DNA of 54,006 nt from a virus (Duplodnaviria > Caudoviricetes). The notes beneath the pieces are model-generated. The model had not been told where the DNA came from and made no database searches. It was given only the letters and a program-made list of their open reading frames with translations. Every line of letters starts with the position of its first letter. Position 1 is the first letter of the stretch. Shown here one piece after another: positions 32,335 to 47,316 of the stretch. Location of the stretch: the IMG/VR virus record IMGVR_UViG_3300010381_000013, positions 1-54,006 of that record. The stretch is one strand, 5' to 3'. The position numbers and the translations under genes are program-made.

Positions 32335-34341
32335 ATGGCGTCCGGCGTCTTTTACCCCGCAGCGTCCACGGATACCGGCTATTGGTTCATCAACGGCGGC
32401 TGGTTCCAGCCCTCCGGCTATAACGGCCGGACAGCCGCTGCGGGCAACTACAACGGCAACAGCGAAGGTGCCTGGGCGCGTTTCCAGAATGTCGCCATTC
32501 CCCCGGGGGCGACGATCACGTCCGCGTTCCTGCGGCTCACCTCCAACAACAGCGCCGCAACCTCGTCGACGGTTTCCCTGGCCGTTCGCGCCGAACTGGC
32601 GGATTCCCCCCCCGCGCCGACATCGATCACCGACGCCAACAGCCGTATAAAATCCGACGGCGTGAGCTGGTTTCCCGGCGACTGGACGGCACAGGCCTAC
32701 GACTCCCCGGATATCGCTTCCGCCATCCAGGAGGTCGTGGACAGGGCGGGATGGGAGGCGGGAAACGCCCTACAGATCTTTGTGCTGGATAGCGGAAGCT
32801 CTTTCGGCGCCGAGCGTGCGTTTTACTGCTTTGGCAACGGCACGGGATATCCCGAGCTGCACGTCACCTGGGCGGAAGGGGTCGAAATCCCGACCGACGA
32901 TATTGCCGTGGCCGCCCCTTCCCCGTCCGTCAGGCACATCGTCATCCCGACAAACACGCTCACGGTTTCGTCCCCGCCGGTTTCGATCGGCGACATCCGC
33001 CTTGATTTCATTGTGCGTCATCTGATCCCGGTCGGCCGGGATTTGATGGCACGCCATCTGGCCCCGGGCGTGCTGGCCGATTTCGCGGCAGCGCACAGCG
33101 TGGCCGGCTGGGTGTGGCGCGGCTTCACGGCCGCCCATGCCGTGCCCGCCCTGGTGGCCCGGGCCTTTCGCGCGCGCCATGCCGTGCTCGATATCAACCC
33201 GGCCAGCCGCCAATGGACGTCGCGCCACGGCATCCCGGCCGATACCGCCATTTTCCGGCCGGCATCCTGGTCGGCCGTGTTCGACGACGACGGGTCCCTC
33301 CTGGACCTCTCCGGCGCGACCATCACCGGGGACCGTGAATCCTACGCCTGGAGTGTGGACCTGACCTTGCCCGACGCCGAAGCCTGGGCCGACTGCACGC
33401 CCGGCCGCCGGCTGACGTTGACCGTTTCGGGCATGCCCTTCGCCCTGGTCCTCGAGGGCCGGACCCGGGACCGCGCGGCGACCAGCGCCGAATGGACGGC
33501 CACGGCCCGCACCGTCTCGTGCCTGCTGGGCGAGCCCTACGCCGACAGTCTCACGCAATCCTGGCCGGAAATCACCGCCAGCCAGGCCGCCGCCGAACTG
33601 GCCGCCCTGGCCGGGCTCCCCTGCGCCTGGGAGGTCTGCGACTGGATCTTGCCGGCCGGCAGGCTGACGGCGGACGCCGAAACGCCGGCTGCGGTGCTGT
33701 CCCGTTTGGCCCAAAGCTGCGGCGGCATGCTGCAACCGGCCCCGGCCGGGGGGGTGAGGGTCGTCTACCGCTACCCGGTCGGCGTCACCGAATATGCATC
33801 GGCCACGCCCCGGGCCAGCCTCACCGCGGCCGATGCCGTGCTGACCCTTTCCGAAACCTACAGCGCCCAGCCCGGGTACGACGCGGTCACTGTGGCGGAT
33901 AACCGCGCGGCGTCCGATGCGTATTTGACGTGGGAGCTGGACAGCGACCGCAACGCCGGCCGCGACACGTTCCCCCCGGGCGAGCCCTGCTACCTGCGCG
34001 TGTACCATGAGGTGGACTATGCCGTGCGCGCCACCTCCGGCACCCTGGAGCGGATTGCCGTGGACGAAGAGGAAAGCCTGACCGAGACGGTCGGTTTCGA
34101 CGACGAGGACGCGGCCGATTTGAACAAACTGGTGGCGGCCGTGGACGCGGTCGTCTGGTGGGGGGCGGACCTGGGCGCGGTTGTTCCCAACGGTGGCGGA
34201 AGCGTGCTGCTGTCCGGCGGCGCGGGCTTTTCCGTGGCCGAAATCACCTACCGCACCCGGTACGACGTCTGGAAGCTGATGCCGGCGGCGCTCGGCGAGG
34301 CGTTCCCGGTCATGCTCGAACTGGCGGAGGCGGACACATGA
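32335..34341 (+). CDS. Tail protein: N-terminal putative carbohydrate-binding beta domain plus hub-like C-terminal region
   Basis: ARFQNVAIPPGATITSAFLRLT...SPDIASAIQEVVDRAGW...PELHVTW; C-terminal WEVCDWILPAG...LAQSCGG. Confidence 0.6.
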   Translation: MASGVFYPAASTDTGYWFINGGWFQPSGYNGRTAAAGNYNGNSEGAWARFQNVAIPPGATITSAFLRLTSNNSAATSSTVSLAVRAELADSPPAPTSITDANSRIKSDGVSWFPGDWTAQAYDSPDIASAIQEVVDRAGWEAGNALQIFVLDSGSSFGAERAFYCFGNGTGYPELHVTWAEGVEIPTDDIAVAAPSPSVRHIVIPTNTLTVSSPPVSIGDIRLDFIVRHLIPVGRDLMARHLAPGVLADFAAAHSVAGWVWRGFTAAHAVPALVARAFRARHAVLDINPASRQWTSRHGIPADTAIFRPASWSAVFDDDGSLLDLSGATITGDRESYAWSVDLTLPDAEAWADCTPGRRLTLTVSGMPFALVLEGRTRDRAATSAEWTATARTVSCLLGEPYADSLTQSWPEITASQAAAELAALAGLPCAWEVCDWILPAGRLTADAETPAAVLSRLAQSCGGMLQPAPAGGVRVVYRYPVGVTEYASATPRASLTAADAVLTLSETYSAQPGYDAVTVADNRAASDAYLTWELDSDRNAGRDTFPPGEPCYLRVYHEVDYAVRATSGTLERIAVDEEESLTETVGFDDEDAADLNKLVAAVDAVVWWGADLGAVVPNGGGSVLLSGGAGFSVAEITYRTRYDVWKLMPAALGEAFPVMLELAEADT

Positions 34342-34667
34342 GACTGACGGTTTTACGCGGCAACGGGGCATCCCCCGCGCCCGACGAGCTCACGGCGGAT
34401 CTGGCCTGTTCCGAGGCCCCGGCCACCCAGGCCGGGCGCAATTACCTGGACGAGTACGGCCAGGACGCGGCCGAGGTCGACGTGGCCTGCATGCCCGAGG
34501 CGGCCGTGGGCGTGCTCCTGCCCGGCGAACTGGTGGAGATCGACGACGGCCCGGCGGCGGAAACCTGGCGGGCCACGGTGACCGGCATCGAAATCGCCCT
34601 GGTCGTGGCCGATTCCGGCGCGGCGACGCTGACCCAAACCCTGACCGTGGAGCGGCCCCTTGAGTAA
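34338..34667 (+). CDS. Small tail protein
   Basis: Coupled ATG with GGAGG RBS; LLPGELVEI motif. Confidence 0.55.
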   Translation: MRLTVLRGNGASPAPDELTADLACSEAPATQAGRNYLDEYGQDAAEVDVACMPEAAVGVLLPGELVEIDDGPAAETWRATVTGIEIALVVADSGAATLTQTLTVERPLE

Positions 34668-34932
34668 CGCCCTGGCCCAACTGCGCCGCGTGGTCGCGCC
34701 GGCCCCACGTCGCCGCGCCGCCACCATCGCCCGCATCCTGGCCGGCGGCCGGGTGGAGCTGGCCGTGACGGCCGACACGTCCGGCGCGACTGCCACGGCC
34801 GGAGCGACCGCCGCCCGACCGGTGGTCTACTGCGGCGTGACCGTATCGGTCGGCGACCGGGTCCTTGTCGAGGGCGACCAGGTGGTCAGCCGGCTGGCCC
34901 GGGAGGCGGAGAGGACGGTAAGGATCAGGTGA
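34660..34932 (+). CDS. Small OB-fold-like tail protein, last gene of the late operon
   Basis: VSVGDRVLVEGDQVV motif; overlaps the previous gene. Confidence 0.6.
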   Translation: MSNALAQLRRVVAPAPRRRAATIARILAGGRVELAVTADTSGATATAGATAARPVVYCGVTVSVGDRVLVEGDQVVSRLAREAERTVRIR

Positions 34933-34933
34933 G

Positions 34934-35893
34934 CGCTGGAGTTGACCCCGTTTTCCCTTCTGCTACGCTCTTCTCAATTTGACCCTGCAATACGCACGTG
35001 TTGCGACTTGACCCCGTTTTCCCTTCTGCTACGCTAGACTTTTCCCGCACCCGTGTGCTCTTCACGTTGCGACTTGACCCCGTTTTCCCTTCTGCTACGC
35101 TGGCCTCGTCCCGTGACGATCACCTGATCACGTTGCGACTTGACCCCGTTTTCCCTTCTGCTACGCTCTTGGCGATGAGCTGCATGACGTCGCCGAGGTT
35201 GCGACTTGACTCCGTTTTCCCTTCTGCTACGCTTCGTCCCATCTCTCTCGGACGCGAGAATTAGTTGCGACTTGACCCCGTTTTCCCTTCTGCTACGCTA
35301 GCACATCACAAGCGTCTTTGCAGCCTTCTGTTGCGACTTGACCCCGTTTTCCCTTCTGCTATGCTGGACGCCGGCACCGCCACGGCAGGGGACGAGTTGC
35401 GACTTGACCCCGTTTTCCCTTCTGCTACGCTGCCACGAGAATTCCCCCAGAACCACGTCCAGTTGCGACTTGACCCCGTTTTCCCTTCTGCTACGCTTCG
35501 CCTCCTCTAGTGTTGGCCCAGGGGGTGCGTTGCGACTTGACCCCGTTTTCCCTTCTGCTACGCTCGAGTTTGATAGGCCCGTCGCTGTGGGGAGTTGCGA
35601 CTTGACCCCGTTTTCCCTTCTGCTACGCTCAAACCAGAAGAGTTTAAAACAGTAAAGGCGTTGCGACTTGACCCCGTTTTCCCTTCTGCTACGCTGAACT
35701 CGTCTTACGAGTCGACCTGGGCGGCGTTGCGACTTGACCCCGTTTTCCCTTCTGCTACGCTGGCGTTATGGACAGGCAGCAGCCTGCTTATGTTGCGACT
35801 TGACCCCGTTTTCCCTTCTGCTACGCTCAGACGCACCAACGGCAGGTAGAGCCATGAGTTGCGACTTGACCCCGTTTTCCCTTCTGCTACGCC
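34934..35893 (+). CRISPR. Type II-C CRISPR array: 15 repeats of 36 bp (GTTGCGACTTGACCCCGTTTTCCCTTCTGCTACGCT) and 14 spacers of 29-31 bp
   Basis: Repeats start at 34934 (5'-degenerate), 35000, 35066, 35132, 35198, 35264, 35330, 35396, 35462, 35529, 35594, 35660, 35726, 35792, 35858; + orientation inferred from tracrRNA complementarity and the TGnTAnnnT box. Confidence 0.98.
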
Positions 35894-38800
35894 CCACGTC
35901 GCAAGTAAGTCACTTCTCCGGTTGGGCTGACGTACAAAGGTTTCGCCTGGCATTTGCGAAGCGCTTCCGGGCTCGATTTAAAAATATACGTGAATTCTTT
36001 CGCCTTATATCGTTTATCAGTATTTGCTTCAAAATGCTCTGCAAGAGCGATTTGTTTGGCGGAGAGCTTGACGATGTAGGCGATTATCGCTTTTTCATCC
36101 TGCACGATCTCGATCATATCACCCTTGAAAAGCTTTGTAATCAATTGTCCCGTCGCGGGCGGCGTCTTGGTCTCCGGATTATTGGCGTCGAATGTCGATA
36201 AAATTTCACCAGACCAGGTCGCATCTTCCTGGAGATAGATCGGGTAATAGGCGTTGGCGTCGCCTTTGAATCCTTTGTACGCATAGCCTTGTGCATTGCG
36301 AATGGGAATGATGTCCCATGTTTCAACAAGGCGGATGCGCCGAATGCCTTTCGCTTGGAAAAACTGCTGCGCCTTTTGCTTAAACATTTTATCCGGAAGA
36401 TCATTGAGGGAATCGGTCAATCTTGCGGCCGCCTTACTTTCGGAAAGTCCTTCGCACTCCTGAACAAGAGCCAGGCATTCCGCAAAGGGCCTGCCGCTGC
36501 AGGCGGCAAGGAGACGGGCCCTGATTCCGCGTCCTTTGATCTTGACCAGGTCCCCTGGCTTTGAAAGCGAATCCGCCGAAACACGGTGCTGCGTGTTGTT
36601 CATGGCCTTTGGCGTGGGGTTAACGATGCCATAGGCCGTAGCGTTGTGCAGACGACCCCCAAGTCCGTGGTCGGCGCGATGTGAAACGACGATCCGGTCA
36701 TGGGCGGCAAGGGCTTCTTCGCGAAAGCCGGGCCAGGGTTGCTCAAAATCCGCGAGAAACCGTTCCAAGCCGTTGGCGACCTCCCGCGCGTTGTGGTCCG
36801 CCGCTTTCTTGAGCAGGCTGCGGTCACAAACCCCGATCAGGGCAGCGTCGAGAGCGTGATGGCGGTGATCGTTACGATTTTTCTTCGGGAACCCCCAGGC
36901 GTGGGCCAGTAGGCGCGTCAACCGGCCGGGAGTCACCCAGATTTTGCGTTTGTCGCAAACGCAGGTCAGGTATTCGCCGGCAATGCGCGCAATGTATTGG
37001 GTGTCGACCAATTGTCTGTCCAAAAAATCCGCTTCGCGTTCCAGCCGCTCCATGGCATCGGGCGCGAACCTCCAGCGCTTGTTTTCCGGCAGGCGCGAGG
37101 CGCATTCCGCGATGCCTTCCCAGGAGTAGCCGTCTCGTGAATCGCCGAAGGCCTCATGGGGCGCGCGATTGAGCTTGTAGCGGTTGGCCCGTCGCAGGCA
37201 GACGGTTTTGTTGGCGGGGCTGTCGTCAAGACTACGGCTGAAGGGAAGAATATGGTCGATTTCCACGGCATCGGAAAGCAACATCGACACGCCGATGACT
37301 TCCCCCGTGTACGGGCAGCGTCGGGCCGCAGCATCATGGCCCAGGTCTTCCCACAGGCGGAGCCGCAGCATGGCATCGGCCGTGGGCTTGGCGCCGCATT
37401 CCTCAAGCTGCGCACGGCGCCTGTCGTTGGCGTCTTTGGCCTCCTTTTGCCTTTTACGGATTTTCTGCATCGCGGCCGGGCCGTTTTTCAGATCGCGGGC
37501 GACCTCCACGATGATTTGGGCCGGCTTGCCGTGGTCCTTGATCAATGCGTTGACGACCTTGCGCAACTGGTTGAGGGCGATATGGACAGTCGGATTGGGT
37601 ATGCGCCCCAGACGAACCTCTTGCGGGTCGGAATGCTTTCCTGAGCCGGGCTTGAGACATCGCGGCAGGGCGACACCGTAATAAGGCAGTCGATCAAAAA
37701 CTTCACCGGTCGAGAGGTCGGAATGGGATTTGAAGCCGGCGCGGGCAACCGCATCGCTGTAAGGAATCACATCCTTTTCGAGTTGTTCGCACAAGGCGGC
37801 CAGGGTCTCCCGGCAAAAACGGGCGTAGCCCCTCGGCAAGGCGGCCTGGGCCACGGCGGCCGCCTTGCTTGGGTCGAGGCTGCAATCCGAGACAAGCGCG
37901 GCAACAAGTTCTTCCTCGTCTTCCGCCATGAGGAGATGGTCCACAATCTCTTCACGAAGCTCGCGGGGCAAACATGCCCAGGCTTTGCCGAAATATTTTT
38001 TCCCGGAAAGGATCTTTGCCGTGGCATCGCCCTTGATTCCGTCCTTGGTGTCCGTGTCCAGGTTGAAGGCCACGCTTGGCGGGAGCTTCAGTTTGGCCCG
38101 AATGGCGTCGAAGCCCAGGTCCTTGCCGGTCTCGAGGATGGCGAGCAGGCTATCGCGCTCCTCCACAGTGAGCGGCCGCTCGGTAAGGTTGCCGGTATCG
38201 AGGACGCGCAGATGATTGAGGTCCTGAAGTATGCGGAAACGCTGGGCCACAGGTAGGGCGCGAGGCGCGCGCGGATAACGGGGCATCAGGGTGCACAGCC
38301 CAGGAGTGACAGGTTTGAGGGGGCGCTGAAAGAAAATGATGTCCCGGAGCCCTCCTCGCCCTTCGACGATTCGAGCAAGTTGGGGATGAAAGGGTGACTG
38401 CGCGGCGATGATCGCGTCAAATTCGGCTTCGGCCAGGGAGCGTTGCGGATAGAACGCATAATCAACCCCAGCGCCTTTCTTCACCGGACGGAAGCGGACC
38501 GGTCGGCCGGACTGACGGCAGTTGTGCAGGTATTCGCCAAGCGTCCGCATTCCGGACTGCTTCAGGCTGGCCGTCAACCTGGTGATGGCGGCTTTTATCT
38601 TTCCCGACTCCTGATCGTTGTCCGTCTTGCGGTTGCTTTTAAAGCCGCGTCGCTGGTTGAGATGGAACAACGCGCGACCGAGTTCAAATGGCTCCAGCCG
38701 GGAATCCAGGGCCTTCGCGCGCAGCCCGTAGGGATCAAGCGCCGCAAGTTGTTTCCGCTCACGCTCGTTGGAGGGCATGAACCCGTTCTGTATCAGAGCC

Positions 38801-39042
38801 TCAAGCAGCTCCTTGCGCCTTTTGAGAAACCGGTCTCGGCGTTTCCGCGCCTGTTTGGCCAACCGCCTGTCCTCGGCCAGGGATGTGCCGCTTTTGGCGT
38901 CACGCCCATCCGAAAAGATGCGAACCCCCATGCCCAGGATACCCTCGGGAGTGCCTTCCGGAAGCAATTTGAGCATGCACCAGCCGATGGAATTTGTGCC
39001 GAGATCCAGGGAAAGACGGTATGGGATTTGTTCGCTGGGCAC
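35887..39042 (-). CDS. cas9: Compact type II-C Cas9 (1051 aa) with intact catalytic motifs
   Basis: RuvC-I LSLDLGTNSIGW; Arg-rich bridge helix; RRGFKSNRK; RuvC-II IIVEVARDL; HNH EIDHILP...NK...N; RuvC-III HHALDA; AGGAGG RBS before GTG. Confidence 0.98.
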   Translation of the reverse strand: MPSEQIPYRLSLDLGTNSIGWCMLKLLPEGTPEGILGMGVRIFSDGRDAKSGTSLAEDRRLAKQARKRRDRFLKRRKELLEALIQNGFMPSNERERKQLAALDPYGLRAKALDSRLEPFELGRALFHLNQRRGFKSNRKTDNDQESGKIKAAITRLTASLKQSGMRTLGEYLHNCRQSGRPVRFRPVKKGAGVDYAFYPQRSLAEAEFDAIIAAQSPFHPQLARIVEGRGGLRDIIFFQRPLKPVTPGLCTLMPRYPRAPRALPVAQRFRILQDLNHLRVLDTGNLTERPLTVEERDSLLAILETGKDLGFDAIRAKLKLPPSVAFNLDTDTKDGIKGDATAKILSGKKYFGKAWACLPRELREEIVDHLLMAEDEEELVAALVSDCSLDPSKAAAVAQAALPRGYARFCRETLAALCEQLEKDVIPYSDAVARAGFKSHSDLSTGEVFDRLPYYGVALPRCLKPGSGKHSDPQEVRLGRIPNPTVHIALNQLRKVVNALIKDHGKPAQIIVEVARDLKNGPAAMQKIRKRQKEAKDANDRRRAQLEECGAKPTADAMLRLRLWEDLGHDAAARRCPYTGEVIGVSMLLSDAVEIDHILPFSRSLDDSPANKTVCLRRANRYKLNRAPHEAFGDSRDGYSWEGIAECASRLPENKRWRFAPDAMERLEREADFLDRQLVDTQYIARIAGEYLTCVCDKRKIWVTPGRLTRLLAHAWGFPKKNRNDHRHHALDAALIGVCDRSLLKKAADHNAREVANGLERFLADFEQPWPGFREEALAAHDRIVVSHRADHGLGGRLHNATAYGIVNPTPKAMNNTQHRVSADSLSKPGDLVKIKGRGIRARLLAACSGRPFAECLALVQECEGLSESKAAARLTDSLNDLPDKMFKQKAQQFFQAKGIRRIRLVETWDIIPIRNAQGYAYKGFKGDANAYYPIYLQEDATWSGEILSTFDANNPETKTPPATGQLITKLFKGDMIEIVQDEKAIIAYIVKLSAKQIALAEHFEANTDKRYKAKEFTYIFKSSPEALRKCQAKPLYVSPTGEVTYLRRGA

Positions 39043-39071
39043 TTGACGTCCTCCTGTTTGTTTGGCAATCT
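39043..39071 (+). promoter_or_regulatory. Candidate sigma70 promoter for tracrRNA, overlapping the cas9 RBS
   Basis: TTGACG-17 nt-CAATCT with a TG extension. Confidence 0.5.
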
Positions 39072-39077
39072 CGCTTT

Positions 39078-39168
39078 ACCCTTTGTAGCAGAAGGGAAAA
39101 CGGGGTCTTCAGTAAGTCGTTAACAAGCTGAAGAGCACCAGCAAGGCGGGCTGCGGCCCGCCTTTTTT
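39078..39168 (+). ncRNA. tracrRNA
   Basis: 23-nt perfect anti-repeat GTAGCAGAAGGGAAAACGGGGTC (39085-39107), bulge, AAGTCGTTAAC lower stem, nexus region, then GGCGGGC-TGCG-GCCCGCC-TTTTTT terminator (39145-39168); 5' end approximate. Confidence 0.92.
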
Positions 39169-39171
39169 ATT

Positions 39172-39215
39172 GGCGAAGTCGCAACGTTCATTGCTGTCAG
39201 AAGTGCTGCGTGCAA
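39172..39215 (-). ncRNA. Candidate scaRNA/crRNA-like mini-guide (isolated 5' repeat fragment)
   Basis: Minus strand reads ...CTTCTGACAGCAATGAAC-GTTGCGACTT-CGCC; the 10-mer at 39176-39185 equals repeat nt 1-10. Confidence 0.35.
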
Positions 39216-39282
39216 TTTGTGTGTTCAAAAAGCCCAACATGTCACATCCTATGAGACGTCAGCACATCACTCTCTTCCACGG

Positions 39283-39312
39283 TTCACATAGAATTTCCAA
39301 GACAGGTATAAT
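39283..39312 (+). promoter_or_regulatory. Candidate sigma70 promoter for the HNH-HIT gene
   Basis: TTCACA-18 nt-TATAAT. Confidence 0.5.
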
Positions 39313-39448
39313 AGAACAGTAGTCCTGTACATCAAGTTTTTCAAGAGAGTGGTCAATAAATTGCATTTTGACTCGCCAGCCACTACCCGGGTACCAGGAT
39401 GGCCAGGCCGCAGCCGAGGGGATGAACTTCCAACAGTGGGCATATCCG

Positions 39449-40423
39449 ATGCGATTCGACGAATTGGTGGATTTTCTCGAGCACAGGATGACGATGCAGC
39501 ATATTTACCAGCCGCTGCTGATTCGTTCGCTTGTGGATGCCGGGGGCTCGGCGACCATCCGGCAACTGGCGCTGGCCTTCCTGGGGCAGGATGAGAGCCA
39601 GATTGTTTTTTATGAGCGGAAGATCAAGGAGATGCCGCTCAAGGTGCTGCGGCGGCACGGGGTGGTGGCGTCGCACGGCGAACTGGTGGAGCTGACGGCG
39701 GGGCGGCTTTCCTTTGAGGAGAAGACCCAGATCCGCATGCTTTGTGACCGGAAGCTCCAGGAGTACATGCTCAAGCGGGGCCTGGGGATCTGGGAATATC
39801 GGATGCTGGAGACCGAGCCCGTGCCCGGGAGCCTGCGCAATCGCGTGCTGGCGGAATCCGGCGGCCGGTGCGCGCTGTGCGGGGCCACGAACAAGGACCG
39901 CCCTCTGGACGTGGACCACATCAAGCCCCGGTCCAAGGGCGGCAAGAACGAATACGCCAACCTGCAGGTCCTCTGCTCCCGCTGCAACAGGGCCAAGGGG
40001 AACAAGGAGGACACGGACTATCGGCCGCTGGTGGCGGAGGATGCGGTTCCTGGTTGTCCGTTCTGCTATGAGGCCATCGAGAGCCGGATCGTGGAGGCGT
40101 ATGATTCCGTGGTGGCCATTCCGGACGGCTTTCCGGTGACCGCAGGACACCTGCTTGTCATCACGAAGCGCCATACGCCGGACTGGTTTTCCATGTCCCA
40201 GGCGGAGCGCAACGACGCCGACAGTCTGCTGCGGATACTCAAGAACCAGCTAAGCGAGGACGACCGCAGTATCACCGGCTTCAATATCGGCATGAACGCC
40301 GGCGCATCCGCCGGGCAGACTGTGTTTCATGTTCATATCCATCTTATCCCGAGACGGGACGGGGATACGGAGAATCCACGCGGTGGGGTGAGAGGGGTGA
40401 TTCCTGGGAAGATGAGTTATTAG
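39449..40423 (+). CDS. HNH endonuclease-HIT hydrolase fusion (start may lie upstream at 39422 or 39368)
   Basis: CALCG...DVDHIKP...NLQVLCSRCNRAK HNH; CPFC, FPVTAGHLLVI, AGQTVFHVHIHLIPR HIT. Confidence 0.9.
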   Translation: MRFDELVDFLEHRMTMQHIYQPLLIRSLVDAGGSATIRQLALAFLGQDESQIVFYERKIKEMPLKVLRRHGVVASHGELVELTAGRLSFEEKTQIRMLCDRKLQEYMLKRGLGIWEYRMLETEPVPGSLRNRVLAESGGRCALCGATNKDRPLDVDHIKPRSKGGKNEYANLQVLCSRCNRAKGNKEDTDYRPLVAEDAVPGCPFCYEAIESRIVEAYDSVVAIPDGFPVTAGHLLVITKRHTPDWFSMSQAERNDADSLLRILKNQLSEDDRSITGFNIGMNAGASAGQTVFHVHIHLIPRRDGDTENPRGGVRGVIPGKMSY

Positions 40424-40519
40424 GATGAGGTGCTCATAATCAGCAACATACTTTCAGAGGATGTGGCTGATAAACAACCTGCGTTGGCCTGTCAGGCGCA
40501 AGTCGAAAGTGGGGAGGGC

Positions 40520-40565
40520 GACAGCTTGCTGCGGATATTAAAAAACCGGCTAAGCGAGGACGACC
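40520..40565 (+). pseudogene. Relic of a second HIT-domain gene
   Basis: 40/46 nt identical to 40220-40265; differences mostly synonymous (DSLLRILKNRLSEDD vs DSLLRILKNQLSEDD). Confidence 0.6.
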
Positions 40566-40599
40566 ACATCACGTCAAGCGGCTTAACGCCACAGCATAT

Positions 40600-41286
40600 C
40601 TACGAAGCGGACCGCAATACTGCCAAGAACTGCCATTGCTTGTGCAACAACGTGCGCAACACGGGGATGTGATTGTACAGGTCGATGCCGACCTTCAATT
40701 CGCACGTAATCAAGCCGAGGCCGGAGACCAGTTGTTTGAACTGATCCTTACGGAAGTATTTCTTCGGCAGGGATATTCCGTAACTCCAGTTGCCGACGGA
40801 ATCCATGATCCAAAGCCACCTGCGCGACCACCATGAATACTCGAAATGATCCTTGACGATGACGAACCTGCTGGTTCTGGCGGCTTCAGCAAGCAACAGC
40901 GGGGCATTTTCCGCCGCATGATGCAGTACGTCGGAGAAGACAACGACGTCGAATTCACGGTTAGCGAAGGGAAAGGTCTTGCCGTCGAATGTACAATACT
41001 TCTCCCAGCGTTTTTGGCCTTTCAGGTGCGCGGGAAGGTCGTACACATCCATGCACACCCATAGCGTTTGGGGCAACGCCTCCCCCAACATTTCGGCGAG
41101 CCTCATGTCTCCGCAGCCCACGTCCAGGCAGCGGAGCATTTTCCCCGAGGGAACATGCCGATCGATGGCCTTCGCTATCAAGTTGGAAAGGATGGAAAGT
41201 CGGTTGCGATGTGAAACCGATTGATGCACGGCGATCATGAGGTCGCCGATTTGTTTTGCCTTTTTACCTGCCAAAGGCGAACTCAT
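40600..41286 (-). CDS. Class I SAM-dependent methyltransferase (glycan/small-molecule type)
   Basis: LDVGCGD motif I; FDVVVFSDVLHH; GGAGG RBS. Confidence 0.88.
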   Translation of the reverse strand: MSSPLAGKKAKQIGDLMIAVHQSVSHRNRLSILSNLIAKAIDRHVPSGKMLRCLDVGCGDMRLAEMLGEALPQTLWVCMDVYDLPAHLKGQKRWEKYCTFDGKTFPFANREFDVVVFSDVLHHAAENAPLLLAEAARTSRFVIVKDHFEYSWWSRRWLWIMDSVGNWSYGISLPKKYFRKDQFKQLVSGLGLITCELKVGIDLYNHIPVLRTLLHKQWQFLAVLRSAS

Positions 41287-41489
41287 GGAGCCTCCGGTCT
41301 ATGCATTCAATATAGGGCGTGAGGCCGTCTTTTCACAATGGCCAGACAGCATGGCTATACGGCTTCGCCGTCGGTCGGGCCGGGCATCCGGTGGCTTCCA
41401 GCCGCAAGGGATACCTGCGTCGCACGGTTATTCCGGCGCTAGGCCTCACCAGGGTAAAGATAAGAGGCGACCTATCTCGCGATGCACCA

Positions 41490-42674
41490 TCACGGCTGTT
41501 GTTTTTTTGAAGGTATTTCGAGGATCGATCCTATGAATCCAATAGGAATGAGTTGCAATGAAAAGGTGAGCAAAAAAGATGAAAAGAGAAATAAACGGAT
41601 ATGGAATATGCTTGTAATGTCTCCAAAGTTGTGTCTTTGCCAATACAAGTAGACATATACCATGGCACACAGGCTCGCTATGATAAGAACTGAGGCAATA
41701 ACAATAATTTTTTCAAGCGAGATTAGTCTGAAAAATTTCATCGACTTATTGTCAAGAGGCAGAAAACCACGCTCTGCAGAAAATTTTCGAATGACGGTAA
41801 ATAGTAAAACGGATTGAAGTCCACCCATTGTTAATATACAACCAACAACAAAAGTATTATTATCTAGTCTGACAGCACCGATTTCAAGGGGGCCACCAAT
41901 AAGTAAAATAACAACAATAAGTCCTATTGTAGTAAAAAATAATCCAGGTATGAGAAACAACCATTGCGGGCTATACATAAGTAAAAAACGCAAGTGTCTC
42001 CACCCGTCTGTCCATGTTTTCAAGTGCGGTGGTCGAGTTCGGCCGTCTACGGAGAGAGTTGTTGGAACTTCTCGAATGTTTAAATTTTCCAATGCCGCAC
42101 GGACAATCATTTCGCTTGCAAATTCCATCCCTGTTGTGTTTAATGATAGTCTTTTTATCGCGCTTGTTTTAAACCCTCGCAGACCGCAATGAAAATCACC
42201 ACATGGAGATCCAAACAATACCTTACCAATAAAGCTAAGGACTGGATTGCCAAGATATCTGTGGCTAAGGGGCATGGCACCCTGTTCGATACATCCTAAA
42301 AATCTGTTACCAATAACAAGCTCAGCACCATTTCGAAGTTCTTGTACAAATAAATCAAGATTGCTAAAGTCGTAGCTATCATCAGCATCACCCATGATGA
42401 TAAAATGACCATGCGCAGCTTCGATCCCTTTTAACAGTGCGGAACCATAGCCCCTTTGGGGCTCTGAAATGATTCGAGCGCCATGTGTAGTTGCAATTTG
42501 GAGCGAACCGTCAGTACTTCCATTGTCCGCTATAAGTATTTCTCCTTGTATTCCTGTCCTGTTTAAAAAATTGAACGCCTTGTCAATACAGATTGCCAAA
42601 GTCTCTGCTTCATTGAGGCACGGCATTAATATTGTAAGTTCGATGTCCGTATTTTCGTCAGAGCGAAAAGTCAT
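41490..42674 (-). CDS. GT2 polyprenol-phosphate glycosyltransferase (GtrB/DPM-like) with C-terminal TM segments
   Basis: ILMPCLNE, IADNGSTDGS, GYG, MGDADDSY (DxD), DFHCGLRG, MEFASEM. Confidence 0.9.
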   Translation of the reverse strand: MTFRSDENTDIELTILMPCLNEAETLAICIDKAFNFLNRTGIQGEILIADNGSTDGSLQIATTHGARIISEPQRGYGSALLKGIEAAHGHFIIMGDADDSYDFSNLDLFVQELRNGAELVIGNRFLGCIEQGAMPLSHRYLGNPVLSFIGKVLFGSPCGDFHCGLRGFKTSAIKRLSLNTTGMEFASEMIVRAALENLNIREVPTTLSVDGRTRPPHLKTWTDGWRHLRFLLMYSPQWLFLIPGLFFTTIGLIVVILLIGGPLEIGAVRLDNNTFVVGCILTMGGLQSVLLFTVIRKFSAERGFLPLDNKSMKFFRLISLEKIIVIASVLIIASLCAMVYVYLYWQRHNFGDITSIFHIRLFLFSSFLLTFSLQLIPIGFIGSILEIPSKKQQP

Positions 42675-42699
42675 TTCCTACACCCTAAGCTCCTGTCGA

Positions 42700-44358
42700 T
42701 CAATTTGCTAGAGAACCCTTTCCATAGCATTTGAGTTCTAACTTTGGGGCATCAGGAGATAAAACCCATATATATCTGTCAAAAAAGTAGTGGGTCAATG
42801 CGCCGTTTTTTTGCTTGTCAAGGTATCTTGCCCAAACTATTTTTGAATCATCAATATCTGCTCCATTGTAAACCCATTCAGCATGAGGCGAGTGCCTTTG
42901 CGAATATTTTACAAGAACAAGATGTTTCCCAGGAATCTTTGATAATGACTCAGAAAGAATAACACGCATTTTTTGCCATGGTATAAATTTTTTATTAAAT
43001 TCCATCTGATAGTTAAAATCGAGCGCTGCAAAAAAAATGAGAGAAATGACGATTGCCCTTGTAATAGTTTTTCCAGAAAGGAAATTCAGCAGGTTTATTT
43101 CATAGAGATGTGACATAAGACTAACGATAATAATATATATAAGGCCTGTGGCTGGTGCGGCATAATGGTTTTGTTGGTAGGTGCAGACCATGAGCCCGGC
43201 CCCAAAAAAAAGAAAAATGAGGAGGCATGCTTGCAAAGGCGGTTCTCTCAAAATTCTGCGGAAGATTATAAACGGAATAAGCAAGACAAATCCAAAATAA
43301 AAATTACTATATTTAATGGTTTTATCTGAAATTGAAGCTATAAACCCTGTAATCGTCTGTTCCTTAAGATACTCTGAATATGTAATTTTAAAAAGTTTAA
43401 GCATTTCAGAGTTATACAATTGTGGTTGTCGAACAAACTTTTCAAATACAAAATTTGGAACTCCATCATGCTGCCTAGCGTATTCAATATAAGGCAATTC
43501 AAAGTAGTTATTTGTTATTGCCTTGTTGTAGATAAGCATGGATGAAGCTGTAGCAATTAAAACAACAAAAAGTGGAGTAAAAAATTTTAATAGTATATTA
43601 TGCCATGTTTCTTCACTTTTTATTAATAAAATGCATACTAAGGTGAGTAGCGGTAAGATTATTAGCACCCCTTCATAGGGTCTACTGCAAGCTAAAATTG
43701 CGATTCCAGCTCCCAAAATAATCGAATGCCGTATTGTAATATTCGAAATAAGCCGTCTCGCCGCGCCAAAAATGAGCGCGCCGCCAAAGGCGGCAACGGC
43801 ACCGCCCCAGTAGCTTTGGCTCCAATAGGCATCCTTGGAAATCATAACCTGGAGAAACGCAATGTAAGCGCCACAAACAGCCCATCCTGGCCCCACCCAG
43901 GCCTGGAGCATCCAGCAAATACCAGCGCACGCCGCTGCAACGCTAAGCCACACGCCGATGATAGGAGTGTTGTCGATAATTTTTCCCAGAGCTAAGACGA
44001 CTCCTTGGGCAGGGGGGTATTTGCTAGCGTATGTGGGATGTTGCAGGACATGAAACGTATCGAAGTTGACCGAACAAGGATGTGAAGGATTGGCCAATCG
44101 CCCTTTGCTAAATGTATCTGCCTGAAGTAGATAGCTATATTCATCATGAATTTTGGGAACTGGTATTCCCATAACCATTGCATATAAACCACAAAATAAA
44201 AAAGTAGTAAAAAAAACGGTGACTATTGCCAACTTTTTGTGCTTAGAAAATTGCGATAGAACAAGCTCAATACGGGAGAATGCTGGAAATGTTATCGAGC
44301 GAGTTACGGTCAAGAGAATCAAGACAACGAAGAATACAAGCATTTGTTGAAAAAACAT
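42700..44358 (-). CDS. Polytopic membrane protein, probable GT-C-fold glycosyltransferase
   Basis: HDEYSY acidic motif after the first TMs, SKYPP, SRPYEG; many TM segments; AT-rich; upstream of the GT2 gene. Confidence 0.65.
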   Translation of the reverse strand: MFFQQMLVFFVVLILLTVTRSITFPAFSRIELVLSQFSKHKKLAIVTVFFTTFLFCGLYAMVMGIPVPKIHDEYSYLLQADTFSKGRLANPSHPCSVNFDTFHVLQHPTYASKYPPAQGVVLALGKIIDNTPIIGVWLSVAAACAGICWMLQAWVGPGWAVCGAYIAFLQVMISKDAYWSQSYWGGAVAAFGGALIFGAARRLISNITIRHSIILGAGIAILACSRPYEGVLIILPLLTLVCILLIKSEETWHNILLKFFTPLFVVLIATASSMLIYNKAITNNYFELPYIEYARQHDGVPNFVFEKFVRQPQLYNSEMLKLFKITYSEYLKEQTITGFIASISDKTIKYSNFYFGFVLLIPFIIFRRILREPPLQACLLIFLFFGAGLMVCTYQQNHYAAPATGLIYIIIVSLMSHLYEINLLNFLSGKTITRAIVISLIFFAALDFNYQMEFNKKFIPWQKMRVILSESLSKIPGKHLVLVKYSQRHSPHAEWVYNGADIDDSKIVWARYLDKQKNGALTHYFFDRYIWVLSPDAPKLELKCYGKGSLAN

Positions 44359-44552
44359 ATGATATTAATGGAAGACGGTAAGATAAAGATTGGGAAGGCT
44401 ATTGATATTCGCTCTCTTGCCCCGAACCCCAGCTTCTTCACCTTCCGGGCTGGGATGCGCTTGTGTCCATGACCAGCTCAGCCTGGATACTCCCGTCTGT
44501 GAGTATTTTTCCCGTTGGCACATGAGACTGCCTCAACATCCCCTCACTCTGC

Positions 44553-45623
44553 CTAGGCGTTGGCCGGCGCTTCGTAGCTCTTGAATGTCTCCATGATCCG
44601 CTCCGCGTACTTGAAGATGTCGTTCAGGCTTTCCAGGGGAACACGCTCTTCTTTTTTGGCGGCATCGAACAGGCCGAGGTATTTCGTTGAACCGTTCAAG
44701 TGGAGGCGGCAGAGCGGCTTGCGATTCGTGTCGTCCAGCAGGACGCCCATGTAGCCTTGTGTATCACGCGCCGCGATGCGGGCGGGATCGCAGCATTCCC
44801 GGAGGATCGCCTTGACGGTCAGATAGCCTTCGATTTCTTCCTGCGTCGTTTCGATCTTCGACTTGGCTGGCTGCTCCAGCACCGCCTCTGTGGGAGGCGC
44901 GGCAGCCGGGGTGGTCACGGTCATCGCGCCCTTCAGGCGTTCGTTGATGCGCTCATCGATGAGCTTGGCGAACGCGCGTTTGATGATCGGGGTGAACTGC
45001 TCCTTGACGGCGGCGGTCATGCGACCCGTATAGACCCGGCCAATGAAAAAGCGGGCGAAATCCTCGGATGGCGTTTCGAGCTCACTGGCCAACAGTTTCT
45101 TGGCTTCCCGCGTGTATTTGAGTTCCATGGCACAGGACAGCGTTTGATCCAGGTCAAACTGTGTCTTGGTCATCTTCTTGAGTTCGGGGACAAGGGACAG
45201 GTCGAGGTCTTCCAGGTCGACGATCATGAACGGCCTGCTGTCCATCTTGTTGGGTTCATCCAGGTCGGTGAAGAAATGGTAGCGCGCGCCGTCTGTAAGC
45301 AGCGCCACGCGGCAGGCGGTCACGGCGAAATAGCGATAGAGCTGGCCCGATGCTTCGGACAGGTCGGCCCCGTATTGTTTGACTTCGACGATGAAGATCG
45401 GCTTTTCGTTCAGGCAGATGGCGTAATCGACTTTCTCGCCTTTCTTGATGCCGTGGTCGGCGGTAAACTCCGGGACCACTTCCTTCGGGTTGAACACATC
45501 ATAGCCGAGCGTCTGCAAAAACGGCATGACGAGGGCAGTCTTGGTCGCTTCCTCGTTGGCGAGATGATCTTTGAGCTTGGCAGTGCGATTCGCAAGTTCC
45601 TGGATTTGGTCAATGAAGTCCAC
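44553..45623 (-). CDS. HsdR-N-like PD-(D/E)xK endonuclease, stand-alone prophage type
   Basis: NEEATKTALVMPF..LGYDVFNP.EV.PEF, EKVDYAI, IVEVK, LLTDG; AAGGAG RBS before GTG. Confidence 0.85.
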   Translation of the reverse strand: MDFIDQIQELANRTAKLKDHLANEEATKTALVMPFLQTLGYDVFNPKEVVPEFTADHGIKKGEKVDYAICLNEKPIFIVEVKQYGADLSEASGQLYRYFAVTACRVALLTDGARYHFFTDLDEPNKMDSRPFMIVDLEDLDLSLVPELKKMTKTQFDLDQTLSCAMELKYTREAKKLLASELETPSEDFARFFIGRVYTGRMTAAVKEQFTPIIKRAFAKLIDERINERLKGAMTVTTPAAAPPTEAVLEQPAKSKIETTQEEIEGYLTVKAILRECCDPARIAARDTQGYMGVLLDDTNRKPLCRLHLNGSTKYLGLFDAAKKEERVPLESLNDIFKYAERIMETFKSYEAPANA

Positions 45624-45691
45624 GCCATTCTCCTTGCTAAATAGATACATCCACTCGTTTAATGGAAAAGTATAAATTACACAATTTCTGC

Positions 45692-45970
45692 TCAGTTATT
45701 ATCCATGTCCAGCGTCCGATAATCACCTAACGTGTTGTCATAGACATTCACTTCAACCCCTGCCCCTGAACCCTGGATGCTGTCAACCGTCACATCGTGG
45801 TAATTCCCCGTGTTGTAGTCGTAAATCTCAATATCCATTCCTGGACGGACCAGATTGCCTTTCTCTATCTCGACATAGCCTCCACTGTTGTAATCAAATC
45901 CGTCCCAGGCCAAAGCTGGAGATGCAGTCACTAGGATGCACAACATGATCATAGCCAGAGAATATCGCAT
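45692..45970 (-). CDS. Small secreted protein (DUF5334-like)
   Basis: Signal peptide ending ALA; WDGFDY...VEIEKGNLVRPG...EIYDY. Confidence 0.65.
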   Translation of the reverse strand: MRYSLAMIMLCILVTASPALAWDGFDYNSGGYVEIEKGNLVRPGMDIEIYDYNTGNYHDVTVDSIQGSGAGVEVNVYDNTLGDYRTLDMDNN

Positions 45971-46164
45971 GGCCTCTCCCCACATTTTCCCATCAGTTAA
46001 ATTAAATCTACGAACATCGTCCTTTCTCCCTGTCCTTTTATTAGTCCTATGCTGATTACTCTTCATGACGACGGCATTAAAGCGTCAGTGATACGTTTCT
46101 TAGGTGTTCTGGAGACGTTTGTAGTCTTGCATCTCGCTTCTCAGTAGCTCTAAATTTTTATATA

Positions 46165-46629
46165 TTACGGGTGTTCAGCTATCCCTTTTGCCCGAGCTTC
46201 ATCCGCCAATTCGTCAACCATCCCATTGGTTGTAATAAATTGCTCAAAAGACCAACCGCCTGTAGCAGAGTTCGAACGGTTGTATAAGTCAACAGCGACA
46301 TCAAGGAGCGATGATTGGCTGTAATAGTTTAAGTTCTCGCTACGATAACGGGTGATGTTGATCACGGTTTTCGGGGTATATCCATCGCGTTCAATCCTAA
46401 GGATGGATTCGTATTTCGTTTTATTGGCGCGATCTGCAAATATTCTTCGGCACAACCGCATAGCGGCATAAACTGCCATATCCGAATTTAGGTTTTTTGT
46501 TTTCTTAACAATACAGTCGTCAATGGAGTTATAGGCTTCAAGTGTGCCGCTGTTGTTGTATGCAAAATAGGATAAATATAATATGAAACATATTACGATG
46601 AATGCAGCAATTCCTGCTAAAGTTTTCAT
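46165..46629 (-). CDS. Membrane-anchored hypothetical protein
   Basis: N-terminal TM segment, 154 aa, AT-rich. Confidence 0.6.
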   Translation of the reverse strand: MKTLAGIAAFIVICFILYLSYFAYNNSGTLEAYNSIDDCIVKKTKNLNSDMAVYAAMRLCRRIFADRANKTKYESILRIERDGYTPKTVINITRYRSENLNYYSQSSLLDVAVDLYNRSNSATGGWSFEQFITTNGMVDELADEARAKGIAEHP

Positions 46630-46700
46630 TGTAAAATGCTATTTGGTGCCGTTGTGTTAGTGCTTATTTATGGCAATTGATGCCTAGATAAACTGTTCTT

Positions 46701-47162
46701 TTATGCCGCAATAGAAAATATGACCATGCAAGCAAGGGAAATGATGACTGACAAAAAAACAAGACCTGCGATTCCTTTTGTTGGCATTTTGGGTACTTTT
46801 GACTCAATTTCTCTTTTGCTAAACCGAGGGGGAAGAGAAAGCATGTTTTCAGTTTTATGTATAAACGCTTTAAGAGTAAGAGCCTCGCTTTGGTCGGTCC
46901 TCCATGTTCCAAGCCAAATGCAAAACAGTATATAGTAAAATGAAGAGGCTAAGGATAGAAATGAAAGGAGAGCGTGTGGATGTGTTCTGAAATATTCAAT
47001 TTCGTGTGTAAGTATATTCCCAAAGAAAACAGTAAGACATACTAGTATCTTTGTAAAAATGTCATGGTGTTTTAGTAGGACATTGTTTGTTTCGGCTAGC
47101 TGCTTATTCTGAATTTTATAATGCTCAACAAGGATGTTGTTGTTTTTTTTGTTCTTGTGCAT
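46701..47162 (-). CDS. Three-TM membrane protein
   Basis: Hydrophobic segments; AT-rich; downstream of the repressor. Confidence 0.55.
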   Translation of the reverse strand: MHKNKKNNNILVEHYKIQNKQLAETNNVLLKHHDIFTKILVCLTVFFGNILTHEIEYFRTHPHALLSFLSLASSFYYILFCIWLGTWRTDQSEALTLKAFIHKTENMLSLPPRFSKREIESKVPKMPTKGIAGLVFLSVIISLACMVIFSIAA

Positions 47163-47316
47163 CAGCTGGTGTCCCTGTCTTTTGTTGGGTAAGAATGCTT
47201 AGCTCAAAAAGAACATCCCCAAAAACTTCCCAAACTTCGCCTTTTCTTCCTGTATCTTCGTCACGTCCTCTTAGACCACTCTTGCTTCAGAGCTCCTTGC
47301 TTAATGAATAGTCCCT

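What the first reader, a model, noticed from the sequence alone, without database searches (positions are those of the whole stretch)
35858..35900. Cas9 stop codon lies inside the terminal CRISPR repeat; leader and cas1-cas2 are absent
Seen: the cas9 stop (TAG, minus strand, 35887-35889) and last Ala codon are the CTACGC of the final repeat, whose last base is changed from T to C. In canonical II-C loci cas1, cas2 and the leader sit at this position. Inference: a deletion fused cas9 to the acquisition-end repeat. The array is therefore either frozen or uses cas9 coding sequence as its leader-anchoring site with host Cas1-Cas2 acting in trans.
Basis: partly seen in the sequence, partly recalled or inferred. 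Interest (0 to 1): 0.75.

Follow-up and report, generated by a model that had tools for sequence, protein, structure and literature searches.

The report
Phage Cas9 locus stripped of cas1-cas2
A temperate phage of sulfate-reducing bacteria carries a pared-down CRISPR-Cas9 system in which a 1.3-kb deletion removed the spacer-acquisition genes and the leader, so that the cas9 gene now ends inside the first CRISPR repeat.

Summary
The cas9 ORF (35887-39042, minus strand, 1051 aa) takes its last Ala codon and TAG stop from the terminal repeat (35858-35893). That repeat's last base is C instead of T.

The deletion reading is supported.
- The two closest Cas9 loci (81% and 76% identity, identical repeat) read cas9-cas1-cas2-~90-nt leader-array. 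The window lacks about 1.3 kb: cas1, cas2, the leader and the first repeat base.
- The join is not an assembly artefact. A contig from a second study (97% identical) starts in the same terminal repeat and runs into cas9.

New here:
- The locus (tracrRNA, cas9, 14 spacers; about 4.4 kb) fills a cargo slot between the tail genes and an HNH-HIT gene of a ~52-kb prophage.
- A sister phage holds a methylase-nuclease-like module of about 4.5 kb in the same slot.
- The two closest complete loci also lie beside prophage genes.
- A Lysobacteraceae chromosome has an independent cas1-cas2-leader deletion that also ends at the repeat.

Interference parts look intact. The locus cannot acquire spacers by itself. 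Whether it is frozen or refreshed in trans or by recombination is open: the second-study relative carries different spacers. No targets were found.

The parts
34660..34932 (+). Last ORF of the phage tail module (90 aa). Its TGA stop (34930-34932) lies one base before the array. It marks the left edge of the cargo slot.
   Evidence: ORF. 87% aa identity to sister phage L109, and nucleotide homology to L109 ends at 34927. Weak PHROG match phrog_5076.
34934..34969 (+). Oldest ('extra') repeat. Bases 1-9 are degenerate (CGCTGGAGT for GTTGCGACT). The part from TTGACC to TACGCT is intact.
   Evidence: L012's oldest repeat diverges at the same point, just upstream of TTGACC. In a cofold it loses the pairing of bases 1-10 with the tracrRNA. 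This fits the pattern Feussner 2025 describe for II-C extra repeats.
34934..35893 (+). CRISPR array: 15 repeats of 36 nt and 14 spacers. crRNA sense is the + strand, convergent with cas9.
   Evidence: Orientation follows from the tracrRNA anti-repeat strand.
35858..35893 (+). Terminal, cas9-proximal repeat, which is the acquisition-end repeat in II-C. Its last base is T>C. It supplies cas9's Ala codon and TAG stop.
   Evidence: The same join is seen in X1 and X2 contigs.
35887..39042 (-). cas9 (1051 aa, type II-C size) with RuvC and HNH motifs conserved.
   Evidence: Alignment to solved Cas9 9ar4 shows DxG(T/I)xSIGW, (E/D)xDH...N and HHAxDA conserved.
39085..39167 (+). tracrRNA, divergent from cas9. 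It has a 23-nt perfect anti-repeat (39085-39107), a 6-nt bulge, further pairing to repeat bases 1-10, and a terminator hairpin at 39143-39164 followed by a T run.
   Evidence: terminator; cofold. Conserved in L011, L012 and L010, with a compensatory change in the terminator stem. The 5' end is not mapped.
34928..39366 (.). Cargo slot of the phage (4,439 nt), filled here by array + cas9 + tracrRNA.
   Evidence: blastn of sister phage L109: 88% identity up to 34927 and 94.5% from 39367 on, with nothing alike in between. L109 has 4,544 nt of other genes there.
39368..40423 (+). HNH-HIT fusion gene, part of the phage backbone at the right edge of the slot.
   Evidence: Pfam HIT and HNH. 96% aa identity in L109.

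Best explanation
The window is a ~52-kb temperate tailed prophage of a Desulfovibrionaceae-type host. It carries a minimal, interference-only type II-C CRISPR-Cas9 module as cargo between its tail genes and its lysogeny genes.

The module descends from a complete cas9-cas1-cas2-leader-array locus of the kind still present in related prophage-associated loci. One deletion of about 1.3 kb removed four things:
- the non-conserved last ~13 codons of cas9, which overlap cas1 in relatives;
- all of cas1 and cas2;
- the ~90-nt leader with its hairpin;
- the first base of the leader-proximal repeat.

The repeat's own GCG TAG now closes the cas9 frame.

How it most likely works (inferred):
- Each repeat carries its own promoter-like element (TTGACC, 16 nt, TGcTACGCT). 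These would drive + strand crRNAs that run towards cas9.
- The crRNAs pair with the conserved tracrRNA and load an apparently catalytically intact Cas9.
- Cas9 then cuts DNA matching the 14 spacers. The likely targets are competing phages or other mobile elements, to the benefit of the prophage and its lysogen.

Without cas1, cas2 and the leader the locus cannot add spacers by itself. Any change in spacer content must come from elsewhere: Cas1-Cas2 supplied in trans, exchange with arrays of identical repeat, or spacer loss.

Shown: the anatomy, the deletion map, the reality of the join, and the phage context. Inferred: expression, activity, targets, and loss of acquisition.
For: Deletion map.
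- L011 and L012 share the identical 36-nt repeat and have cas9, cas1 (305 aa), cas2 (109 aa), then ~75-90 nt with a hairpin, then the array.
- Homology to the window's cas9 runs to residue 1048.
- In L011 the stretch 11145-12463 (about 1.3 kb) has no counterpart in the window (coordinates read).

Family pattern.
- 10 of 13 distinct loci at 49% Cas9 identity or more are complete.
- 3 of 13 carry other deletions: L010 keeps a cas1 N-terminal remnant (tblastn) and, by eye, a cas2-like C-terminal remnant; L101 lacks cas1 only; L103 has a cas9-cas2 fusion.
- None of the 13 has cas9 abutting the array.

Real join. X1 and X2 contigs start inside the terminal repeat and continue into cas9. X2 comes from another study and is 97.3% identical over 4,542 nt.

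Phage context.
- Primase, terminase, portal, protease, major head protein, tape measure and tail proteins lie on the left. A CII-like regulator and an integrase lie on the right.
- Sister phage L109 is 87-94% identical on both sides and has a C5-methylase plus a NOV_C-type protein in the slot instead.

Intact interference parts.
- Cas9 motifs are conserved.
- The tracrRNA is conserved across four loci, with covariation in the terminator stem.
- The repeat:anti-repeat duplex is full length with a bulge.

Polarity. II-C systems acquire at the last transcribed repeat, and the oldest repeat is often mutated (PMC12080349 sections 4 and 16). The Nme leader carries elements essential for acquisition (PMC12477760, passages).
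Against: - No protospacer was found for any of the 14 spacers. Searched: the window itself; 401 family genomes (only 2 candidates scored per genome); the phage collection; IMG/VR for three spacer cores; and all loci held. The proposed role in competition between elements is therefore untested.
- The promoter scan flagged only the one repeat variant with TATGCT. The standard repeat (TACGCT) falls below the tool's threshold. Some relatives' repeats end in C, so the meaning of the T>C change is uncertain.
- There are no RNA data.
- X2 contigs show at least two spacers that are not in the window, one of them directly after the degenerate oldest repeat (tables 5 and 5c). A strictly frozen array does not predict this unless spacers were lost differentially.
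- The host genome is not available, so cas1-cas2 elsewhere in the cell cannot be excluded.
Confidence: 0.8

Rival explanations
1. The array is still being updated. Cas1-Cas2 from a co-resident complete II-C system with the same repeat (host chromosome or a related prophage such as the L011/L012 type) would insert spacers in trans. Insertion would be at the cas9-proximal repeat, with cas9's 3' end standing in for the leader, or at internal repeats.
For: - Complete systems with the identical repeat exist in related prophage-associated loci.
- Arrays with closely similar repeats occur in several further genomes among 401 of the family searched (28 of 401 had any match to the array query).
- The X2 relative shares the cas1-cas2-less join but has at least two different spacers.
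- Trans acquisition is documented for plasmid type IV-A3 systems (Benz 2024, as cited in PMC11656645; passages read).
- The three bases before the repeat (TGG) also precede the first repeat in L012, L010 and L019.
Against: - The whole leader, including its conserved hairpin, is gone, and the repeat's leader-side base is changed.
- The 9 bases before the repeat match L012's leader at only 4 of 9 positions (read).
- One of the different X2 spacers sits at the oldest end, which acquisition at the cas9 end does not explain.
- It is not shown that the X2 array contigs and the X2 cas9 contig come from one genome.
Confidence: 0.2
2. Spacer content changes by homologous recombination between the phage array and other arrays of identical repeat (cassette exchange), and by spacer loss. 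Integrase activity would play no part.
For: - The 36-nt repeat is identical to that of L011 and L012.
- The phage family is mosaic: the tail module of L012 is unrelated while its lysogeny genes are related, and the cargo slot holds different modules.
- The X2 spacer difference at the oldest position fits exchange or loss better than polar acquisition.
Against:
- There is no direct evidence of an exchange event.
Confidence: 0.3
3. The cas9-repeat join is an assembly artefact: a collapse or chimera at a repeat.
For: Repeat arrays are hard to assemble. The Logan contigs are broken inside the array (table 8).
Against: - The 31-mer that spans the altered last base and cas9 is unique.
- In X1 it is carried by a contig at the same depth as the rest of the phage.
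- In X2, from another study, it is carried by a diverged (97%) contig.
Confidence: 0.02
4. The module acts as counter-defence rather than as a nuclease defence. The phage Cas9, tracrRNA and array would soak up or misdirect the host's II-C components, which use the same repeat. This resembles the RuvC-dead phage Cas9 described in the literature.
For: - The repeat is identical to that of complete systems in the same bacterial family.
- The review PMC11656645 (passages) describes a phage Cas9 with inactivated RuvC thought to sequester crRNAs.
Against: - The RuvC-I Asp, the HNH Asp-His and Asn, and the RuvC-III His/Asp motifs are all conserved here.
- A 14-spacer array is kept.
Confidence: 0.07

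Closest known systems
Canonical type II-C CRISPR-Cas (Neisseria meningitidis, Campylobacter jejuni type)
   Same: - Compact Cas9 (1051 aa) with RuvC and HNH motifs.
- tracrRNA next to cas9.
- 36-nt repeat ending in a TGnTAnnnT-like element. Repeat-embedded promoters are described for II-C in PMC12080349 and PMC12477760.
- Array transcribed towards the cas genes.
- Oldest repeat degenerate in its first bases.
   Different: - No cas1, cas2 or leader.
- cas9's stop lies inside the acquisition-end repeat.
- The locus is phage cargo.
Complete II-C loci next to prophage lysogeny genes in Desulfovibrio sp. DV (L011) and a Proteobacteria MAG (L012)
   Same: - Identical repeat, 81% and 76% Cas9 identity, near-identical tracrRNA.
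- Neighbours homologous to the window's integrase, CII-like, 110-aa and 184-aa proteins (61% and 51% identity for the last).
   Different: - They keep cas1, cas2 and a ~75-90-nt leader with a hairpin.
- Their modules are about 1.3 kb longer.
- L012's tail-fibre genes are unrelated to the window's.
Virus-encoded CRISPR-Cas systems that lack an adaptation module (jumbo-phage systems; reviewed in PMC11656645)
   Same: A phage-borne effector plus array without cas1-cas2, presumed to serve competition between elements.
   Different: - According to that review such systems are rare in phages under 200 kb. This phage is about 52 kb and temperate.
- The system is type II-C with an apparently active Cas9.
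- The deletion can be mapped to within a few bases against complete relatives.
IMG/VR contig L010 (54% Cas9 identity)
   Same: A viral contig with tracrRNA, cas9 and a 17-repeat array of a related repeat, without functional cas1-cas2.
   Different: - Separate deletion: a cas1 N-terminal remnant (tblastn residues 2-34), a cas2-like C-terminal remnant (read by eye) and the leader hairpin are kept.
- cas9 has its own stop.
Lysobacteraceae MAG locus L023 (40% Cas9 identity)
   Same: cas1-cas2 and the leader are deleted, and the right end of the deletion lies at the start of the leader-proximal repeat, three bases in.
   Different: - Chromosomal context: LysR, QueF and hydrolase genes.
- cas9 keeps its own stop.
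- 16 codons of cas1 remain, fused to the repeat.

Membership tests
Type II-C CRISPR-Cas | Cas9 effector with RuvC-like and HNH nuclease domains, compact size (~1000-1100 aa) | tested here: met
   Pfam HNH_4, RuvC_III and Cas9_a. 1051 aa. The best PDB matches are Cas9 proteins of 1055-1095 aa, with catalytic motifs aligned.
Type II-C CRISPR-Cas | tracrRNA with an anti-repeat complementary to the CRISPR repeat | tested here: met
   23-nt perfect anti-repeat at 39085-39107 plus a terminator. The duplex extends to repeat bases 1-10. Conserved in three relatives.
Type II-C CRISPR-Cas | Adaptation genes cas1 and cas2 in the operon, without csn2 or cas4 | tested here: not met
   No PF01867 or PF09827 match in the whole record. 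The 4.4-kb module holds only cas9. csn2 and cas4 were not searched by family.
Type II-C CRISPR-Cas | Leader next to the cas-proximal (last transcribed) repeat, where spacers enter | tested here: not met
   cas9 coding sequence abuts the repeat. Relatives have a 75-110-nt leader with a hairpin.
Type II-C CRISPR-Cas | Promoters embedded in each repeat | tested here: inconclusive
   TTGACC, 16 nt, TGcTACGCT is present in each repeat by eye. The scan tool flagged only the TATGCT variant at 35338-35365. No transcript data.
Type II-C CRISPR-Cas | Oldest (first transcribed) repeat often mutated in its first ~15 nt | tested here: met
   Bases 1-9 of the repeat at 34934 are degenerate. The criterion comes from PMC12080349 section 16.
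Phage-encoded CRISPR-Cas cargo | Locus lies inside a virus genome, flanked on both sides by virus genes | tested here: met
   Tail genes on the left; HNH-HIT, CII-like regulator and integrase on the right. A sister phage has the same flanks with different cargo.

The most novel reading that the evidence does not exclude
The adaptation-less phage array is not a fossil. It keeps changing its spacers after losing cas1, cas2 and the leader. The change would come from Cas1-Cas2 of the complete sister systems carried by related prophages, or from cassette exchange between arrays of identical repeat. In addition, the deletions that strip the adaptation module would be made at the leader-repeat junction itself, for example by failed Cas1-Cas2 integration. 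That would explain why two independent lineages (this phage and the Lysobacteraceae locus L023) both end the deletion within three bases of that junction.
Probability: 0.2. Interest if true: 0.8.

Novelty: new variant of a known kind. Interest (0 to 1): 0.55.

Why it matters
- It is a natural, base-mapped example of how a mobile element pares a Cas9 system down to tracrRNA, cas9 and array in 4.4 kb, with complete relatives available for comparison.
- A review (PMC11656645, passages read) calls CRISPR systems rare in phages of ordinary genome size. Here a ~52-kb temperate phage lineage carries either complete or stripped type II-C systems, or a methylase-nuclease-like module, in one cargo slot.
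- The complete/stripped pair, with identical repeats, makes an open question testable: can a leaderless array without cas1-cas2 still gain spacers in trans?
- The trimmed ends fit current ideas on II-C array architecture. The oldest repeat keeps only its promoter-like half. The newest repeat keeps 35 of its 36 bases, including the whole tracrRNA-pairing part.

Tried and rejected
Spacer targets. None was found in any of these searches:
- the window outside the array, up to 6 mismatches;
- 401 genomes of the family of G001 by BLAST. Only 2 candidates were scored per genome. Non-repeat hits were short or low-complexity. The best, spacer 4 at 26 of 30 in a DctP transporter gene, is about what chance gives;
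- the phage collection in distant mode (no match);
- IMG/VR exact cores of spacers 14, 13 and 11 (no match);
- all loci held and sister phages L109 and L110.

Spacers of 28 related arrays do not match the window (26-mers, up to 2 mismatches).

Repeat search in IMG/VR found only L010's contig.

The phylum-wide Cas9 search gave 3 of 401 genomes with a match: G001 itself plus two new ones. I did not analyse those two loci. My plan to collect more adaptation-less loci stopped there.

In one search, X2 shows no cover over 35372-35605. I do not use this as evidence that those spacers are absent.

Codon positions of the 13 listed X2 differences in cas9's 3' end (6 third, 4 first, 3 second position, worked out by hand) are too few to judge selection.

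Microhomology at the deletion: only GC or GCAGA could be shared between the cas1 start region and the repeat start (by eye). This is not decisive.

The AAGTCGCAAC after the tracrRNA terminator is not conserved in relatives, so I dropped the idea that the tracrRNA is a split repeat.

Loci not followed: L084, L088, L091 and L092 (a cas2-like hit directly after cas9, no cas1 hit) and L089 (neither hit in a 1.2-kb flank).

One search used Cas1 and Cas2 queries translated in the wrong frame. Its cas1 and cas2 rows are void and were redone.

Supplementary files of the papers were not opened. The supplement of PMC12080349 may list II-C loci without cas1-cas2.

Recalled and not checked here: Al-Shayeb 2020/2022 on phage CRISPR systems; McGinn and Marraffini 2016 on the leader-anchoring sequence; Zhang 2013 on Neisseria repeat promoters.
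Full report
**What is there**

The window is the whole of one IMG/VR provirus record of 54,006 bases.

From 34934 to 35893 there are 15 copies of a 36-nt repeat at 65-67-nt spacing, with 14 spacers of 29-31 nt. The copy furthest from cas9 (34934-34969) has its first nine bases changed. The copy nearest cas9 (35858-35893) ends in C where the other 14 end in T.

The only long ORF on the other strand is 35887..39042 (1051 aa). It ends GGG GCG TAG. The Ala codon, the stop and the third base of the Gly codon are the last seven bases of the terminal repeat. The protein is a Cas9 (Pfam HNH_4, RuvC_III, Cas9_a). In the alignment to a solved type II-C-size Cas9, the RuvC-I Asp, the HNH Asp-His/Asn and the RuvC-III His/Asp motifs are all conserved. 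That these are the catalytic residues is recalled knowledge.

No Cas1 or Cas2 family match exists anywhere in the record.

**The third component and the direction of the array**

Forty-three bases upstream of cas9, on the + strand, lies a 23-nt perfect complement of repeat bases 11-33 (39085-39107). It is followed by further pairing to repeat bases 1-10 across a 6-nt bulge (cofold). After that comes a 9-bp GC-rich hairpin with a T run.

This tracrRNA is almost invariant in the three nearest loci and shows a compensatory change in the terminator stem.

Because the anti-repeat is on the + strand, crRNAs must be + strand transcripts. The array is therefore read towards cas9, and the cas9-proximal repeat is the last one transcribed.

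Feussner et al. 2025 (PMC12080349; abstract and sections 4 and 16 read) make three relevant statements:
- type II-C systems acquire spacers through the last repeat;
- the first repeat is the oldest, "extra" repeat;
- in 60% of systems that first repeat is mutated, mostly in its first 15 nt.

Passages of PMC12477760 add two points for Neisseria. The leader flanking the array holds elements essential for acquisition. II-C crRNAs also start from promoters inside the repeats.

**Is it a deletion?**

Yes. The nearest Cas9 relatives are L011 (Desulfovibrio sp. DV, 81% identity) and L012 (a MAG, 76%). Both have exactly the same repeat and read cas9, cas1, cas2, then about 75-90 nt containing a hairpin, then the array.

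Homology to the window's cas9 runs to residue 1048. In L011 the next ~1.3 kb (11145-12463, read) has no counterpart in the window. The window has seven bases there instead, and then the repeat from its second base.

Among 13 distinct loci with 49% Cas9 identity or more:
- 10 are complete;
- 3 carry other deletions: L010 keeps a cas1 N-terminal remnant (tblastn), a cas2-like C-terminal remnant (read by eye) and the leader; L101 has lost only cas1; L103 fuses cas9 residue ~430 to cas2 residue ~60;
- none has cas9 touching a repeat.

The more distant loci examined also show cas1 after cas9 wherever the flank is long enough. The exceptions are L023 and a few loci that I did not follow.

**Is the join real?**

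Yes. Public contigs of run X1 (probably the source sample) include an 18,304-nt contig that begins at 35866 inside the terminal repeat. It runs through cas9 without a difference, at the same depth (261) as the tail genes.

Run X2, from another study, has a 6,591-nt contig that begins at 35863 and matches 35863-40404 with 121 differences. The first listed difference is at 35909.

The join, including the altered base, is therefore older than about 2.7% sequence divergence.

**Context**

The locus is phage cargo.
- To its left lie primase, large terminase, portal, protease, major head protein, tape measure and tail proteins, all on the + strand. The last tail-module ORF stops one base before the array.
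- To its right lie an HNH-HIT gene, a low-GC block with methyltransferase and glycosyltransferase genes, a CII-like regulator and an integrase.

A sister phage in IMG/VR (L109) is 87-88% identical in DNA up to window 34927 and 94.5% identical from 39367 on. Between these points it has 4,544 nt of unrelated genes: a C5 cytosine methylase, a NOV_C-type protein and two unknown proteins. The window has 4,439 nt of array, cas9 and tracrRNA in the same place. The CRISPR module thus fills a swappable cargo slot. With cas1, cas2 and the leader it would be about 1.3 kb longer.

The two "complete" relatives are not plain chromosomal loci. Both are preceded by homologues of the window's integrase, CII-like, 110-aa and 184-aa (HTH) proteins. 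L012 is also followed by a DUF4376 protein and a 547-aa ORF that I take to be tail-fibre genes. This looks like a lineage of temperate phages that carry type II-C systems, complete in some members and stripped in this one.

**How it probably works**

- Both ends of the array are trimmed. The oldest repeat has lost the part that pairs with the tracrRNA but keeps TTGACC, 16 nt, TGcTACGCT (also true of L012's oldest repeat). The terminal repeat keeps the whole tracrRNA-pairing part and differs only in its last base.
- I read TTGACC/TGcTACGCT as the repeat-embedded promoter known from II-C systems. The scan tool supports this only for the one variant repeat with TATGCT, so this step is inference.
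- The T>C change removes the last T of that -10-like element in the one repeat whose transcript would run antisense into cas9. It may equally be a by-product of the breakpoint.
- With an apparently intact Cas9 and tracrRNA, the locus should work as an interference-only system. It cannot acquire spacers by itself.

**Frozen or not?**

This is unresolved. X2 contigs show a different 30-nt spacer directly after the degenerate oldest repeat, and a second spacer absent from the window (tables 5 and 5c).

That speaks against a simply frozen array. It is equally explained by trans acquisition, by exchange with arrays of identical repeat, or by differential loss from a longer ancestor. The X2 array contigs are also not proven to belong to the X2 cas9 contig. 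No spacer is shared with any array I hold.

**A second case**

In the Lysobacteraceae MAG locus L023 (40% Cas9 identity; chromosomal neighbours), cas9 is followed by the first 16 codons of cas1. These match the Cas1 start of its relative L019. They are fused to a repeat that lacks its first three bases.

Two of the five adaptation-gene deletions seen here therefore end within three bases of the leader-repeat junction. The sample is too small to claim a mechanism. It suggests that the junction cut by Cas1-Cas2 may be a preferred breakpoint.

**Novelty**

Virus-borne CRISPR-Cas without adaptation genes is known. It is described mainly for jumbo phages and is called rare in phages under 200 kb (PMC11656645, passages).

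A full-text search for Desulfovibrio + prophage + type II-C + Cas9 found no paper. Two other searches listed no paper whose title or abstract describes a cas9 stop inside a repeat, but I did not open most of them.

I rate this a new variant of a known kind.

Noticed in passing
window 34928-39366 versus L109 11000-15543: The slot between the last tail ORF and the HNH-HIT gene is a cargo hotspot. The sister phage L109 carries a C5 cytosine methylase (512 aa), a NOV_C/TmtA-C-like protein (372 aa) and two unknown ORFs there instead of CRISPR-Cas9.
   Followed up: partly
window 39174-39183: AAGTCGCAAC, the reverse complement of repeat bases 1-10, lies just after the tracrRNA terminator. It is not conserved in L011, L012 or L010, so it is probably chance or specific to this lineage.
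   Followed up: partly
L023 11228-11280: Lysobacteraceae MAG: the first 16 codons of cas1 are fused to a CRISPR repeat lacking its first 3 nt. cas2 and the leader are gone. The context is chromosomal (LysR, QueF).
   Followed up: partly
L103 (G035:C195) and L101 (G103:C133): Other decay forms of the same II-C family. In L103, cas9 truncated at about residue 430 is fused to the cas2 C-terminus, followed by a lone degenerate repeat. In L101, cas1 alone is missing and cas2, leader and array are kept.
   Followed up: no
window 40214-40268 and 40514-40568: A 55-nt direct repeat (84% identity) lies around the 3' end of the HNH-HIT gene. The X1 contig shows a 'goes back 282' joint there.
   Followed up: no
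window 1-1912 and 41000-48000: Low-GC blocks (38-52% GC against about 65% elsewhere). They hold a GtrC-like O-antigen conversion gene, tRNA-Leu (1828-1912), a GT2 glycosyltransferase, a methyltransferase and an HsdR_N-like protein. These are probably morons or host flank. The prophage ends were not mapped.
   Followed up: no
window 33500-34900 versus 35900-40400 in run X2: Summed contig depth in X2 is about 100-130 over the tail genes but about 38 over cas9. More phages in that sample may share the tail module than the Cas9 cargo. Depth of contigs is a weak measure.
   Followed up: no
L097 (G006:C7), after cas2: The leader and array region of this locus reads as a run of N (withheld or masked), so its leader could not be compared.
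   Followed up: no
leaders of L108, L107, L102, L101, L010, L019: Every leader I could read has a strong hairpin ending 5-12 nt before the first repeat, although the sequences differ. It may terminate both the cas operon and the crRNA read-through. The window has lost it.
   Followed up: no
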